DNA from: Euglena gracilis
Taxonomy: Eukaryota
DNA: 64,000 nt
Direction of reading: 5' to 3'
Assembly (NCBI GenBank): GCA_039621445.1
Contig: CP154954.1
Location: 21,712,954 to 21,776,953 of the forward strand
Below the pieces are notes generated by a model, which was not told the DNA's origin, did not search any database, and saw nothing but the letters and a program-made list of their open reading frames with translations. The stretch's first letter is position 1; every line of letters starts with the position of its first letter. Below, piece after piece: positions 6,106 through 33,805 of the stretch. The position numbers and the translations under genes were made by a program.

Positions 6106-9100
6106 GTTTCATTGTGGTGATGGTGGCAGTCATCTTGTTTGTCATACTGCTCTTGGTGAATGCCAAGGCCGAGGGGGCTGTGAGTATTTCAACAGGCAAC
6201 CCTGGTATGCCATTGCTATCCCCATTCTTTTTCAGCTCGTTTTTTATGCTTGACATTAGCGGTGTATTTTGTCATCCTTTTTCCCGGGTTTTTAGTTTTT
6301 CAGTCTCGTCTTTTTTTGTGTTGTGTTTGCTCTTTTTTTTGTATTTGCTGGTCTTTCCATGTCCTTGCACATCTTTTTTCTTTGTCTGAGAATTTTACCA
6401 GTGATTTTTGTGAACCCCTGGTTTAACATGTTTGTTATATCAGGGTTTTTCTTTTCTTTTCAAGTTGCATCAGTGAGTCTCTGCTTTACACAGCGTATCA
6501 GAAGGTTTGGCATCGGCAGGCCTATCCACTTGAAAGGTGCGGGTGGTGTAGGTTGACCCACTGGTTTATTGTGGAGCAGAGGATCATTCAGCCCACGCTA
6601 CGGGTATGCATACTGATGCCAGCCACACCAGGCTTGTGCTCAGTAGGGTGCCTACCCCCCCCCCCCCCGGGGGGGTGCCTGCTAGGGGCAGGCACCCTAT
6701 AGCACCCACCCCCCCCCCGGTTGGTAAGCACAAGCATGAGCCACACAGTGGGGAGGCGCCGGCCAAGGGCCCCGGATGGCCCCGCAGACGTGACCCCGGC
6801 TCTGGCGCGGCTGCCACGCGGTTCCTTCGCCCCCGCAGCCGACCGCTGCCGGGTGTCGGAGAGGGCCGACTGGGGCCCCGGCCCGGGTTGTGGGGGAACG
6901 GCCCGCACCGCCCGGCCCGAGGCAGAGCCCGGTGTGTCTCCCAACCCCGCCCCCCCCCCCCCGAGTCCGCCAGGGTTCGATATACACCGAGGTGGGGGAG
7001 TCACTATCCCCCTTGACGCGGGGGGGGGGATCCGGTCCATACGTTCATTTAGCACCCGTGTGATCCCCTGGGGGGGGGGGTCGTGGGGGGGGGCGGGGGG
7101 GGGGAAATGCAACTTGCAGTGCATTTTTTGCATTGCTGCCCCCCGAATTTGCATTTTTTGCATGCATTTTTTTTGCATAAAATATTTTCCCCGGAAAAAT
7201 TTTTGTAGTTGGTTGCCATATGTTTGAAATTTTGCATATTGCATTTCTACATAAAATATTTTGCCCTGGAAAAAAATTGTTGTTGATTGCCATATTTATG
7301 GATTTTTGCATTTTTTTTGCATTTGCATAAAATATTTTTCCCTGGAAATTTTTTTTGATTTTAGGCAGCAAAGCTCTGTTGTATTCGAGCTTTTTCTCAG
7401 GTTTTTCATGCAAGTTGCATTTTTTGCATTTTTTTTGCATTTTTTTGACTTGCATAATTTGAAGGGCCCAGTTGCATTTCCCCCCCCCCCTGGGGGGGGG
7501 TCGGTTTTCGAAAAACGTGGGAGGGTTTGGGCCCAGGAAAAAGTGCCCCCCCCCCCCGAGTCATTAAGTGAATCTATGATCCGGTCCGGACCTTCCCCCA
7601 CCTGCCAAGGGGGTCCCAGGGGGAGGGTGACACCCAGACCCCCAAAGGTCATTATTTCCTTCCAGCTCTTAACGCCGGAATTTTTGATAAGTTTGACAAT
7701 TTTTTGCCCCAAAAAAAGTGCCCAAGACGGCATTTTAGGTCGGTTTTGGAGTGCGAGAATTTTAAGCAGAAAATCAGCCACTTTGGCCGCATCACCGCTT
7801 AGGTGGGGGGGGGCCCCCCCCCCCCCCACCATCCCCACCCCCTCCTCGGCCGGGGGGGGGGGTCCAACCCACTCCCCATGTCCCCTCTTATCGAACCCTG
7901 GTCATGATGCTTGCACGCAGAACCAGATATGTATTTAAGTTTGGGGGGGTCCAGTGTATTTTGGTGTAAGCCATCGAAGTTTCTGGACTTGTAATGGACC
8001 CCCCAAAAGTGTCCCAACCCCGCTGGGAGGGGGTCTCGGGGTGCCCTGGGCATGCCCGGCACCACCCCCAAAGAGGGCTTGTGGCTGGGTTTCCGGCGCC
8101 AAACGCACCAGAAGTGCCTTTTGCCAAGGCCCAGGCACTTTTGGCCATGTGCCCAACCCCCCCCAGGGATTCGGATCTGGGTGAGTGCCTGCCCAGGCTT
8201 GCACCCCACAGGGGGGGGGGGCAAAACAGTAATCGGTCCAACAGCCAGGGGGGTTGGGGGGGGTCTATTACCCCCCACCACCTCTTCCTTCCTGTTTTTC
8301 TGGTGGCACCAGTTTTTGGACCCAAAAAAAATTTCCGGTGCCAAAGGCGCCGGGTGTATTTTGACCCCTTTTGGTACCCATATTGGAGGTCCCCCAAAAA
8401 ACCCCACAGCCTCATTTTGTTCACACCTTCCAACATTTCAGCATTTTCTCAAAATTTTAATGTCATTGAAAATCCAAATTTTTCAAAGAAAAAAAATGTC
8501 AGTAAAATTTGATTGTGCCAAAATTTGGTTCAATTTTTTCGACCTGCATGTTTTTCACCCCCCCCCCTCCCCTGAAACGCCACCAATTTTTAACCCTGAA
8601 ATTGTGTATTTCCATCAAAAAGAATGTAATCTGGGTTCATTTTTCAAAAGAACTTAAAAATCCCTGGCCAAAATCCCCGTTTTCCCAAAATTGGTGAAAA
8701 TGCTTTGGTGGGTGGGGGGGTCGACCACCCCCCACCAGGCCTTCCCGTTCTGCCGTGGGGGGGGGGGGGTCGGCCTCTCAAAATTCAGCCTGCTCGGGGT
8801 CAATGGGCCTCTAGGCTTACGGGGGGTCATGTTGCCCGGTGACCCCGGGGGAGGGTGGGTGGGTGGGTGCCCCCCCCTCCCGGATGCATCTAAAGCAACA
8901 CCCCCCCCTCCCCCGCAGAACCACAGCTGCCCCTCCCGCCCCCGCCCCGCGCCAGCCCGCCGCCCGGGCCGGACCCCCGCTTCCTCGCCGTGCTCGGCGT
9001 GTGGGCGGCGCTGCTGCTGACTCTCCCCTACGCCCTCCGCCCCCGCCCCTCTGCCCGCCGCCACCGCCGCCCCCGGCCCCCCGCAGCCCCCCGGGCCCCG

Positions 9101-33100: not shown

Positions 33101-33805
33101 CTAAAAGTGAATCCAAAAAAAACACCCCTCAAAAAGCCATTTTACGTTGAACTGCTTTCGGGTAGTGCCCAAATAAATGTCACACACCTGAGGATTCGAA
33201 ACTTCGGTCCGATGATGTGCACACCCCATGCATTTGAGTGAGGGGGATTTGCATTTGCATTTGTTTTTGTAGACAGGGGGAAATGCGCTGTGTTTTCCTC
33301 ATTTTCACACATTTTGTTGTGTATTTTTGTGATTTTCAGGCAAATGCACATTCTTCGGACATTTTGTTCATTTTTTGCTCATGATTTTATTTGCACATTT
33401 TTTGTGTTATACACATTTTTTCTGTAACGAGTTTTATCTTGCGAAAATCTTTGTAAATGATCTTTGGCAAAAGGGTGTACATCCCCGGGAGGTTTTTAGG
33501 AGTTTTCATGCAAGTTGCATTTTTTATTCTTTTCCATTGTTTTGCATTGCGCATTTTGAGGTGCCTTGTTGCATATTCTCCCCACTAACCTTGACGATGA
33601 TGCACGGAGGGCGGTGCCTTTTTGCATTCGCTCTGCCTCGTTTCCTGGACTTGCAGCATTTTTATTTCATTTTCCAGTTGTTCGCTTTCCCCCCTGTCGT
33701 TTTCCGATTTGAAAGGATGGCAACGGGTGCTTGGACATTGTTCCCCTTCAGGGACAACTGATGCATGGGACTCTGGTCTCTTGGATTTGGAGGCAACCAT
33801 CGGAG
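6106..33805 (+). CDS. Multi-exon gene for a two-TM, Pro/Ala/Glu-rich repeat protein of unknown function (start and stop exons not fixed)
   Basis: GT-AG exons that join in frame: 6106-6179 (GFIVVMVAVILFVILLLVNAKAEGA, TM1), 6494-6536, 6788-6931, 8919-9133 (FLAVLGVWAALLLTLPYAL TM2 then RPRPSARRHRR), 9708-9740, 10123-10165, repeat exons 11210-11287, 12208-12291, 12976-13053, 14324-14407, 14628-14705, 16300-16383, 16900-16980, 24235-24318, 24573-24653, 25619-25705, 26188-26271, 26706-26768, then 27191-27313, 28282-28344, 28642-28725, (29229-29258 uncertain), 29391-29486, 33752-33805. Phases match at every junction and there are no internal stops. Confidence 0.72.
6629..6738. mobile_element. hAT-type MITE (110 bp), intronic
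   Basis: TIR CAGGCTTGTGCT / AGCACAAGCATG (1 mismatch); exact 8-bp TSD AGCCACAC at 6621-6628 and 6739-6746. Confidence 0.8.
11397..11465. repeat. Short tandem repeat (unit TCGGGCGTCCTGGCTTGCC, about 3.5 copies), intronic
   Basis: Directly visible; the corresponding introns after other B exons carry only one GGGCGTC unit. Confidence 0.8.
13364..13628. repeat. (TATG)n/(TACG)n/(TG)n compound microsatellite; shorter homolog at about 24995-25085
   Basis: Direct sequence; it explains the spurious HTY/MYV ORFs. Confidence 0.95.
14805..16490. repeat. Recent approx. 1.7-kb segmental duplication; second copy at about 22705-24425 (intron plus exon A)
   Basis: Near-identical colinear sequence from CCCATGGGCC..AAGTTAGG..AACTCCTAACCCAACC through exon A to CCAAGTGAGCTCCCGACATAGTTGCC. 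Confidence 0.9.
16607..16889. mobile_element. hAT-type MITE inserted in the polypyrimidine tract of a splice acceptor
   Basis: Ends CAGGCTGT ... ACAGCCTT; exact TSD TTCTTTTC at 16599-16606 and 16890-16897, immediately before the AG at 16898-16899. Paralogous B exons lack the insertion (GTGTTCTTGTCAG). Confidence 0.82.
17503..18719. mobile_element. Non-autonomous hAT element with GCCGACCGCA subterminal repeats
   Basis: Perfect 12-bp TIR CAAGCACCTATG / CATAGGTGCTTG; exact TSD TATGTTTC at 17495-17502 and 18720-18727. Confidence 0.9.
19198..22613 (-). mobile_element. Retroelement-like remnants in an intron: gag-type CCHC knuckle, a CxxC/CxxC fragment and a 355-codon acidic Pro/Thr-rich ORF
   Basis: ORF 21856-22251 contains CWKCGRWGHLARDC (CX2CX4HX4C); ORF 22179-22613 has CINC...CQNC; ORF 19198-20265 is intronless and low complexity. 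All are antisense to the host gene. No RT motif seen. Confidence 0.5.
21380..21615. repeat. Minisatellite, about 50-bp unit x5
   Basis: CCTCGGGCCGGGGGATTTTTGTCCAAAAAATCAAGGCGCCCCCC repeated in tandem. Confidence 0.85.
29604..32499. repeat. Approx. 2.9-kb interrupted (CAG)n trinucleotide tract
   Basis: Continuous CAG/GCA units with a recurrent CAGTCGCAG variant; more varied toward the 3' end. Confidence 0.98.

What the first reader, a model, noticed from the sequence alone, without database searches (positions are those of the whole stretch)
6106..33805. Membrane protein apparently growing by duplication of symmetric phase-1 exon cassettes
Seen: 13 related exons (63-87 nt, all multiples of 3, all phase 1-1) in the order B-A-B-A-B-A-B-A-B-A'-A''-C...C share E[E/D]QRAP (one reads EEPRAS). 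Exons and splice sites stay intact while the introns have gained different microsatellites and transposons. Copies are young at the 5' side and diverged at the 3' side. Inference: purifying selection on an unknown repeat protein. Any subset of cassettes could be skipped in frame, allowing a length-variable disordered tail with many S/T-P sites. I do not recognise the family.
Basis: partly seen in the sequence, partly recalled or inferred. Interest (0 to 1): 0.72.

Follow-up and report, generated by a model that had tools for sequence, protein, structure and literature searches.

The report
Repeated mini-exon array in euglenid gene
Thirteen related mini-exons with intact splice signals sit in tandem in what looks like an orphan gene for a proline-rich secreted or membrane protein, a textbook way for such genes to grow, but sampled RNA reads showed no sign that it is expressed.

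Summary
Thirteen homologous mini-exons (63-87 nt) lie on the + strand between 11210 and 28344. All are bounded AG|..|GT, all are multiples of 3, all are phase 1-1, and all carry E[ED]QRAP (one reads EEPRAS).

With a signal-peptide-like exon (6120-6179) and a bridging exon (10123-10165) they give a stop-free 377-aa Ala/Pro/Glu-rich product.

The array is five tandem two-exon units that share one intronic junction.

- Mid-introns of units 1, 2 and 5 are only about 75% identical, while blocks around the exons, including about 190 nt of intron, are 88-100%. The near-identity at the 5' side is mostly homogenisation (gene conversion), plus one truly recent duplication (units 3/4, 97%).
- Evidence for protein-level selection is mixed. 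All exonic indels are in frame, all 26 splice sites are kept, and A exons are more conserved than their flanks. But B exons diverge as fast as their introns.
- Three RNA runs (about 37.7 million reads sampled) gave essentially no depth on the exons and no listed junction.
- No homologue or family was found.

Verdict: a new member of a known kind; whether it is expressed is unproven.

The parts
6120..6179 (+). Candidate first coding exon. The ATG lies 14 nt after a CAG acceptor (6103-6105). The exon encodes 20 residues with a 12-residue hydrophobic core and ends in phase 0 at GTGAGT. A second possible donor in phase 1 lies near 6206.
   Evidence: Read from the sequence. It is the only strongly hydrophobic 19-residue window of the 377-aa core model. 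There is no transcript support.
10123..10165 (+). Candidate exon 2 (43 nt). It has a strong pyrimidine tract plus CAG and a GTATGC donor, and it converts phase 0 to phase 1.
   Evidence: with this exon the model reads through all 13 cassettes without a stop.
11210..11287 (+). Cassette A1 (78 nt, phase 1-1)
12208..12291 (+). Cassette B1 (84 nt, phase 1-1)
12976..13053 (+). Cassette A2 (78 nt)
14324..14407 (+). Cassette B2 (84 nt)
14628..14705 (+). Cassette A3 (78 nt)
16300..16383 (+). Cassette B3 (84 nt)
16900..16980 (+). Cassette A4 (81 nt). The sequence upstream of about -10 has been replaced by an insertion, yet a pyrimidine tract plus CAG is present.
16981..24234 (+). A 7.25-kb intron. About 5.5 kb of it (about 17186-22696) is absent from the sister unit and consists largely of very high-copy repeats.
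   Evidence: homology map; table 2 (X1 word depth 35,000-165,000).
24235..24318 (+). Cassette B4 (84 nt)
24573..24653 (+). Cassette A5 (81 nt)
25619..25705 (+). Cassette B5 (87 nt), a diverged B type, 81-83% identical to B1-B4.
26188..26271 (+). Cassette B6 (84 nt), with the degenerate motif EEPRAS.
26706..26768 (+). Cassette C1 (63 nt), a B type with a 21-nt in-frame deletion.
28282..28344 (+). Cassette C2 (63 nt)
11024..25774 (+). Five tandem two-exon units (A + B), starting at about 11024, 12360, 14477, 16453 and 24387. Each B is followed after 69 nt by the same junction to the sequence that lies about 186 nt upstream of A.
29391..29486 (+). Optional candidate exon (96 nt, phase 1-1, CAG..GTAAGG), unverified. 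It contains an in-frame ATG and could instead belong to another gene.
33752..33805 (+). Unverified.
34298..34653 (+). Candidate last exon (phase-1 acceptor, stop TGA at 34651-34653). It has an Ala-rich hydrophobic stretch followed by basic residues, so it could be a membrane anchor. Unverified.
   Evidence: hydrophobic windows 410-418 of a 513-aa model. No homologue and no Pfam family.

Best explanation
This is most likely one lineage-restricted protein-coding gene on the + strand. The organism is a euglenid according to earlier notes of this scan, which I did not test.

Its middle part is an array of 13 homologous mini-exons. Each encodes 20-28 whole codons plus a shared junction codon, giving a Pro/Ala/Glu/Thr-rich, low-complexity, probably extended and disordered chain. 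This chain follows a signal-peptide-like start and may precede a membrane anchor.

How it was built:
1. Single-exon duplications gave the A, B and C types. The C type is a B type with a 21-nt in-frame deletion.
2. A two-exon segment (A + B) was duplicated in tandem, with break points in the introns. This created one junction that all later units inherited, which fits unequal crossing-over.
3. Gene conversion, or a similar homogenising exchange, keeps blocks of roughly 300-600 nt around the exons nearly identical while the mid-introns drift and take up microsatellites and transposons.
4. At least one unit duplication (units 3/4) is recent.

Because every cassette is phase 1-1 and a multiple of 3, unit gain, unit loss or exon skipping changes the length of the chain without breaking the frame.

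Shown: the anatomy, the junctions, the identity gradients, and frame and splice-site retention. Inferred: transcription, the 5' and 3' exons, secretion or membrane anchoring, and a spacer or stalk function.
For: - 13 of 13 cassettes have AG and GT borders, phase 1-1 and no stop in the shared frame.
- Exon 1, exon 2 and the 13 cassettes translate to 377 aa without a stop: A 23.1%, P 19.6%, E 11.7%; 22 S/T-P and 24 A-P sites; acidic 60 against basic 31. The only strongly hydrophobic window is at the N-terminus.
- Units start at 11024, 12360, 14477, 16453 and 24387. Each of B1-B4 is followed after 69 nt by the same junction.
- Identity in blocks around the exons: the intron stretch upstream of A is 80-99% (88-99% in 6 of the 7 pairs that aligned there), A exons are 99-100%, and B1-B4 exons are 93-98%. 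Mid-introns are about 75% over 444-729 truly alignable columns, and unrelated controls align over only 10-18 columns.
- Units 3/4 are 97% identical over 1309 mid-intron columns.
- Frame constraint: the exonic indels (3, 3 and 21 nt) are all multiples of 3, while 26 of 29, 5 of 5, 14 of 15 and 17 of 18 intronic gaps in four alignments are not. In B1 versus B5 there is 1 exonic gap event where 4.7 are expected.
- A exons are more conserved than their own flanks: 100% versus 92.1% (p = 0.003) and 100% versus 87.9% (p = 0.0002).
- C1 versus C2 differences fall 3/4/8 over codon positions, and pN/pS is lowest in the proposed frame (0.48, against 1.0 and 3.4).
- The Arg, Ala and Pro of the motif use different codons in the A/B, C1 and C2 types.
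- Exons are GC islands (0.69-0.81) within introns of 0.45-0.59.
- Among the exon-bearing bins, X1 word depth is 34-114 in the six without high-copy repeats. So the cassettes are not a genome-wide repeat.
Against: - RNA: three raw-read RNA runs were sampled (12.9, 12.9 and 11.9 million reads, about 5%, 5% and 56% of the runs). Depth was at most 0.15 on every bin in which the only notable feature is cassettes. None of the 15 listed joints had RNA reads (174 more joints were not shown). Most laid reads fitted only partly and lay on repeats.
- Young B exons are no more conserved than their flanks: 92.9% vs 90.4%, 94.0% vs 95.4%, 97.6% vs 96.4%.
- B versus B6 differences fall 5/5/5 over codon positions, and pN/pS is about 1.
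- For the older pairs the excess of exon over intron identity is small and not significant: 81.0% vs 73.6% (p = 0.10) and 76.2% vs 71.8% (p = 0.31).
- The two differences that X1 shows inside exons both change the protein. One turns the motif Arg of B5 into Gly. Exons show no deficit of listed differences (2 seen, 1.4 expected).
- A second frame (offset 0) is also open in all 13 cassettes, so openness alone proves little in such GC-rich DNA.
- No homologue exists for the cassette or for the putative last exon.
- The 5' and 3' exons are chosen by rule, not by data.
Confidence: 0.55

Rival explanations
1. The array is a silent relic or a never-functional gene-like array. It evolves neutrally and looks intact only because gene conversion keeps copying good cassettes and because GC-rich sequence rarely makes stop codons.
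For: - There was no RNA depth or listed joint in the three sampled runs.
- B exons diverge like their introns, and B6 shows no codon-position bias.
- Both exonic variants in X1 change the protein, one in the core motif.
- Two frames are open in all cassettes.
- Intronic flanks are homogenised as well, so exon identity needs no selection.
- No relatives were found anywhere.
Against: - B5, B6, C1 and C2 lie outside the homogenised blocks and are 17-28% diverged. They still keep all 8 splice dinucleotides, have no stop, and carry only in-frame indels, while neighbouring introns carry 0.03-0.06 gap events per nt, about 90% of them out of frame.
- A exons are more conserved than their own converted flanks.
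- Fifteen exons chain from an ATG with matching phases.
Confidence: 0.3
2. The number of units is an assembly artefact: one or two real units were laid out several times.
For: No single X1 record spans the stretch, and A exons are identical, so short contigs cannot count the units.
Against: - Units differ by 3-25% in alignable intron sequence.
- They carry different microsatellites and insertions and have different lengths (1.3, 2.1, 2.0 and 7.9 kb).
- X1 contigs independently cover unit-specific stretches with few differences: 10378-11059 across the left edge of the array, and 11435-11952 (table 8).
Confidence: 0.05
3. The cassettes are pieces of a mobile or satellite-like repeat that merely resemble exons.
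For: The surrounding introns are full of very high-copy repeats.
Against: - Exon-bearing bins without transposon sequence have X1 word depth of 34-114, which is near single copy.
- There is no further copy in the other 36 kb of the window or on the minus strand.
- Borders coincide exactly with AG and GT in one constant phase.
Confidence: 0.05

Closest known systems
Genes of disordered proteins assembled from tandemly duplicated symmetric exons (Schad, Kalmar & Tompa 2013, PMC3632108; I read the abstract and passages)
   Same: Successive exons share one phase class, encode low-complexity and probably disordered sequence, arose by internal tandem duplication, and can be skipped in frame.
   Different: That study describes the human genome. 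Here the host is a euglenid-type protist with multi-kb, transposon-filled introns, and the array also shows homogenised blocks around its exons. Expression is not shown.
Titin PEVK region / PPAK motif exons (the PPAK motif of titin is named in PMC3632108; the details below are recalled)
   Same: Modules of about 26-28 residues, rich in Pro and Glu, each on its own small symmetric exon and repeated in tandem. It is thought to act as an extensible spacer whose length is set by exon use.
   Different: No sequence relation: 0 Pfam families for 11 of 11 cassettes scanned at E <= 10. Here there is a signal-peptide-like start, so the product is probably extracellular; Lys is almost absent and Ala is abundant.
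Tropoelastin gene cassette exons
   Same: Small exons that are multiples of 3, with codons split the same way at every border (one base, then two), often giving a Gly codon at the junction. This allows cassette-like alternative splicing.
   Different: No sequence similarity is expected, there are no cross-linking Lys-Ala domains, and the lineage is different. I did not test it.
Pro/Ala/Ser/Thr-rich surface or wall glycoproteins: mucin-like stalks, arabinogalactan-protein-like backbones, and kinetoplastid procyclins (recalled)
   Same: A signal-peptide-like start and P+A+S+T of about 54% in the 377-aa core. There are many A-P, S-P and T-P dipeptides and an acidic net charge, with no Cys and almost no aromatic residues.
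   Different: No homology was found. Procyclins are encoded without introns and carry a lipid anchor (recalled). Glycosylation cannot be tested here.

Membership tests
Tandem array of duplicated symmetric exons (a kind of gene architecture, not a protein family) | Neighbouring exons are homologous to each other | tested here: met
   Identity to B4 is 40-96% across the other 10 cassettes of the 11-cassette protein alignment, with E14, R17 and A18 invariant.
Tandem array of duplicated symmetric exons (a kind of gene architecture, not a protein family) | Same intron phase on both sides and length a multiple of 3 | tested here: met
   13 of 13 are phase 1-1, with lengths of 63-87 nt.
Tandem array of duplicated symmetric exons (a kind of gene architecture, not a protein family) | The duplication includes flanking intron and shows a shared junction | tested here: met
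   The same junction lies 69 nt after each of B1-B4, and the left edge of the array is at about 11018-11024.
Tandem array of duplicated symmetric exons (a kind of gene architecture, not a protein family) | The exons are spliced into an mRNA | tested here: inconclusive
   No depth and no listed joint in three sampled RNA runs. Only about 5%, 5% and 56% of the runs were read.
Titin PPAK/PEVK motif or any other Pfam repeat family | Match to the family profile | tested here: not met
   0 families for 11 of 11 cassettes scanned at E <= 10. A2 and A5 were not scanned; each has the same protein sequence as a scanned cassette.
Type I membrane protein | Cleavable signal peptide, then one membrane-spanning helix followed by basic residues | tested here: inconclusive
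   Hydrophobic windows lie at residues 0-6 and 410-418 of a 513-aa model. Both lie in exons whose link to the array is unverified, and no dedicated predictor was available.
Arabinogalactan-protein-like / mucin-like backbone | Secreted, with more than half of residues Pro/Ala/Ser/Thr (a recalled rule of thumb), and glycosylated | tested here: inconclusive
   Composition is met: A 23.1 + P 19.6 + T 7.2 + S 4.5 = 54.4%. Secretion is only inferred, and glycosylation cannot be tested with these tools.

The most novel reading that the evidence does not exclude
This is a euglenid-specific surface 'stalk' or spring protein that is silent under standard culture and switched on only in a special state such as encystment, palmella, stress or mating.

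The length of its ectodomain is tuned at two levels. Over evolutionary time, unequal crossing-over and gene conversion act on a two-exon module. Within a cell, phase 1-1 cassettes are skipped in different combinations, perhaps helped by the purine-rich GAGGAGGAGCAGAGG core acting as a splicing enhancer as well as coding sequence.
Probability: 0.15. Interest if true: 0.5.

Novelty: new member of a known kind. Interest (0 to 1): 0.3.

Why it matters
If it is expressed, this would be a clear protist example of a disordered, proline-rich protein growing by tandem duplication of symmetric exons. That route is well documented in animals.

It also shows concerted evolution confined to short blocks around exons inside very large, transposon-filled introns. 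This would give a handle on how gene conversion and splicing constraints act in a euglenid genome.

It does not open a new kind of system, and without transcripts it stays a gene prediction.

Tried and rejected
- Whole genome: none is held for this window. Copy number elsewhere could therefore only be judged from X1 word depth.
- The repeat finder on the region was swamped by the 2.9-kb CAG array and gave nothing useful. I replaced it with BLAST in scripts.
- Sequencing-run search: no RNA holder was listed. 18 RNA-like contig runs of the same species label held next to none of the sampled words. This is reported here only, not as evidence.
- Protein searches with a contiguous 56-aa read-through of cassette B4:
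  - longer proteins: 76 candidates, none at E <= 1;
  - proteins of like length: no candidate.
  - A first try with the bare 27-aa exon was below the tool's 40-aa minimum.
A compositional look-alike might have been found that way.
- Metagenome scan with the cassette alignment: 273 pattern matches, 0 confirmed.
- Pfam: 0 families for 11 cassettes and 0 for 10 long ORFs of the window, including the putative last exon.
- HMMER against 1.84 billion representatives with the putative last exon: 0 hits.
- Cassette peptides were found neither in 7 supplementary files of a Euglena proteome paper (PMC13660438) nor anywhere in the paper library.
- A paper search for Euglena proline-rich or mucin-like surface proteins gave nothing relevant.
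- Rfam and tRNA scans of the window: nothing.
- Earlier notes of this scan: none on this place or sequence. The notes on 'exon duplication tandem' concerned other phenomena.
- I considered and rejected a minus-strand reading: the borders would read AC..CT.
- I considered and left open whether the 2.9-kb CAG array is coding (see Noticed in passing).
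Full report
**What is there**

A six-frame scan for E[ED][QP]RA[PS] finds 13 hits. All lie on the + strand, between 11245 and 28323.

Each hit lies in a short segment preceded by a pyrimidine-rich tract and CAG or TAG, and followed by GT (GTGAGT, GTGAGC, GTACGC, GTATGC or GTGAAC). Taking those borders, the 13 segments measure 78, 84, 78, 84, 78, 84, 81, 84, 81, 87, 84, 63 and 63 nt. Every one begins with the last two bases of a codon and ends with the first base of the next, which is phase 1-1.

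All end in G. They begin with GG, AG or AC, so any cassette can follow any other with only the junction codon changing (Gly, Glu or Asp).

The order is A-B-A-B-A-B-A-B-A-B5-B6-C1-C2. B6 is the copy that reads EEPRAS.

A tblastn of the 13 cassettes against the whole window showed no further copy. The output was cut; in the head and tail that I saw, the best hit outside the 13 exons was E = 0.01, in the CAG microsatellite.

**Gene model**

An ATG follows at 6120 and opens 20 codons with a 12-residue hydrophobic core, ending in phase 0 at GTGAGT.

A 43-nt segment at 10123-10165 has a strong acceptor and a GTATGC donor, and converts phase 0 to phase 1. With these two exons the 13 cassettes translate into 377 residues without a stop. 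The composition is A 23.1%, P 19.6%, E 11.7%, R 7.4% and T 7.2%. There are 22 S/T-P and 24 A-P dipeptides, no N-glycosylation sequon and no Cys. There is one aromatic residue, and 60 acidic residues stand against 31 basic. The only strongly hydrophobic window is at the N-terminus.

Downstream, three phase-compatible candidates exist:
- 29391-29486;
- a last exon at 34298-34653, with an Ala-rich hydrophobic stretch followed by basic residues and a TGA stop.

With the last two candidates the model has 513 residues and looks like a type I membrane protein.

These 5' and 3' exons were chosen by splice rules and phase only. The putative last exon has no Pfam family and no hit among 1.84 billion representative proteins.

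In this GC-rich DNA an open frame is weak evidence, because a second frame is open in all 13 cassettes. The exons are GC islands (0.69-0.81) in introns of 0.45-0.59.

**How the array was built**

BLAST of the region against itself and a four-way alignment show five tandem units of one A and one B exon. They start at about 11024, 12360, 14477, 16453 and 24387.

In every unit the B exon is followed after 69 nt by the same junction. That junction leads into the sequence which, in the first unit, begins about 186 nt upstream of A1. Upstream of that point the first unit is unique.

One junction shared by all units means one founding tandem duplication with intronic break points, followed by amplification of the unit. 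This fits unequal crossing-over.

A and B are themselves homologous (60% protein identity). C is a B type with 21 nt missing before the last codons. B6, C1 and C2 are single-exon copies. So single-exon duplication came first and two-exon duplication later.

**Young copies or homogenised copies?**

Segment-wise identities say otherwise.
- A exons are 99-100% identical in all pairs.
- The intron stretch upstream of A is 80-99% identical (88-99% in 6 of the 7 pairs that aligned there).
- The 120 nt downstream of A are 85-96% identical.
- B1-B4 exons are 93-98% identical, and their 69-nt tails 90-99%.

The mid-introns of units 1, 2 and 5 are only about 75% identical over 444-729 columns. This homology is real, because unrelated control sequences aligned over only 10-18 columns with the same settings.

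Only units 3 and 4 are young throughout, at 97% over 1309 mid-intron columns. Unit 4 then differs by about 5.5 kb of extra sequence, largely made of repeats whose word depth in X1 is 35,000-165,000.

B5 and its flanks sit at the old level: exon 81%, flanks 61-79%.

The simplest reading is an old array whose blocks around the exons, non-coding flanks included, are kept alike by gene conversion, plus one recent unit duplication. Selection on the protein cannot explain 190 nt of 95-99% identical intron. Selection on intronic splicing signals is a possible minor contributor.

**Is there purifying selection?**

The evidence is mixed.

For:
- A exons are more conserved than their own flanks: A1/A5 100% versus 92.1% (p = 0.003) and A4/A5 100% versus 87.9% (p = 0.0002).
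- The exonic indels are 3, 3 and 21 nt. Intronic gaps are out of frame in 26 of 29, 5 of 5, 14 of 15 and 17 of 18 cases in four alignments.
- In B1 versus B5 one exonic gap event was seen where 4.7 were expected from the intron rate. In C1 versus C2 none was seen where 2.0 were expected.
- All 26 splice dinucleotides are kept. This includes those of the four diverged cassettes, and that of A4, whose upstream sequence was replaced to within about 10 nt of the acceptor.
- C1 versus C2 differences fall 3/4/8 over codon positions. pN/pS is 0.48 in the proposed frame, against 1.0 and 3.4 in the others.
- The motif's Arg, Ala and Pro use different codons in different cassette types.

Against:
- Young B exons differ as much as their flanks: 92.9% vs 90.4%, 94.0% vs 95.4%, 97.6% vs 96.4%. 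Most of their differences change the protein.
- B versus B6 differences fall 5/5/5 over codon positions.
- The exon excess in the old pairs is small and not significant: 81.0% vs 73.6% (p = 0.10) and 76.2% vs 71.8% (p = 0.31).
- The two differences that the DNA-like run X1 shows inside exons both change the protein: Arg to Gly in the motif of B5, and Gly to Glu in B6. Two were seen where 1.4 were expected from the exon share.

My reading is that length, frame, splice signals and the short acidic motif are constrained, and the rest of each cassette is nearly free. That is what one expects of a disordered spacer, but it is also not far from a slowly decaying gene.

**Expression**

The run search listed no RNA holder (noted under Tried and rejected only).

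I laid three raw-read RNA runs of the same species label, plus X1, on 10000-29500. The tool read 12.9, 12.9 and 11.9 million RNA reads, about 5%, 5% and 56% of the runs. Only 81, 91 and 113 reads were laid. Of these, 76, 86 and 108 fitted only partly, and most were 95-99% alike and lay on the repeat-rich stretch at 16.5-21.1 kb.

The six bins from 24322 to 28227 hold the unique exons B5, B6, C1 and C2. Their depth never exceeded 0.13, and none of the 15 joints listed had RNA reads (174 further joints were not shown). A handful of short partial alignments in bins with A exons cannot be attributed.

But the sampling is shallow and covers few conditions, so a silent-in-culture gene is not excluded.

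X1 contigs independently cover unit-specific and unique stretches with few differences: 10378-11059 across the left edge of the array, then 11435-11952, 25095-25699, 26019-26786, 27082-27532 and 28031-28912. Six exon-bearing bins without high-copy repeats have a word depth of 34-114. So the sequence is real and the cassettes are not a dispersed repeat. The number of units cannot be checked with short contigs.

**Relatives and family**

None was found.
- A contiguous read-through of cassette B4 found no protein among longer entries or entries of like length.
- A degenerate-pattern scan of metagenome contigs gave 273 pattern matches and no confirmed relative.
- Pfam gave nothing for 11 cassettes at E <= 10.
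- Cassette peptides are absent from the supplements of a Euglena proteome paper and from the paper library.

A recent paper states that most euglenid introns are canonical GT-AG (PMC12621601, passages). This fits the borders seen here.

**Comparison with what is known**

Genes for disordered proteins built from same-phase symmetric exons that arose by internal tandem duplication are well described for the human genome. Such exons are often alternatively spliced. The PPAK motif of titin is named as one such module (PMC3632108, abstract and passages).

From memory, the titin PEVK exons and the tropoelastin cassette exons are the closest analogues in design. The PEVK exons encode Pro/Glu-rich modules of about 28 residues, one per exon. 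The tropoelastin exons all split codons in the one-then-two pattern.

The composition recalls mucin-like stalks, arabinogalactan-protein backbones and kinetoplastid procyclins. None of these is a homologue by any test I could run.

The finding is therefore a new member of a known kind of architecture in an unusual host. Its extra point of interest is concerted evolution limited to short blocks around the exons.

**Verdict**

- The best explanation is a real but unexpressed-in-sample orphan gene for a Pro/Ala/Glu-rich secreted or membrane-anchored spacer protein. It was built by tandem exon and unit duplication and is homogenised by gene conversion (confidence about 0.55).
- The main rival is a silent relic (0.3).
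- Interest is modest (0.3).

Noticed in passing
window 29622-32499: There is a 2.9-kb imperfect CAG/GCA microsatellite (88% matches) with regular TCG interruptions at spacings of 9-15 nt. Long open frames run through it on both strands, so on the + strand it could read as poly-Gln, poly-Ser/Arg or poly-Ala. It lies between the last cassette and the candidate 3' exons, preceded by a candidate exon with an in-frame ATG (29391-29486). Whether it is intronic, intergenic or coding is open.
   Followed up: partly
window 16510-21066 and 23020-23670: These are very high-copy repeats inside the 7.25-kb intron: X1 word depth is 35,000-165,000, against about 20-115 in the bins without high-copy repeats. 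RNA reads from other copies pile up at 20416-21066, and all of them carry C at 20640 and diverge at 20685/20709. So a related element is transcribed somewhere. The 377-aa ORF at 19198-20331 (-) has no Pfam family.
   Followed up: partly
window 11753-11901, 13712-13836, 18775-18920, 25179-25308: A segment of about 150 nt is shared at 73-83% identity by the A-to-B introns of units 1, 2, 4 and 5. It is either part of the ancestral intron or a small mobile element.
   Followed up: no
window 25669 and 26227: The DNA-like run X1 differs from the window inside two cassettes. At 25669 A>G turns the motif Arg of B5 into Gly. At 26227 G>A turns the odd Gly of B6 back into the consensus Glu. These are allelic or strain variation.
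   Followed up: yes
window 17514-18688, 28898-29168, 42721-43291: Arrays of 10-nt units (TTTTGGCCAC-like and GCCGACCGCA-like), partly in inverted pairs, recur in several places of the window. This suggests one family of repeat-bearing elements.
   Followed up: no
window 58115-59839 (-): This is the longest open frame outside the microsatellite (574 aa). It has no Pfam family and contains a 27-nt tandem repeat at 59635-59722.
   Followed up: no
window 6640-9160 and 32520-32880: Long runs of C and of G, often as C-run/G-run inverted pairs, fill the introns next to the candidate first exon and after the microsatellite.
   Followed up: no
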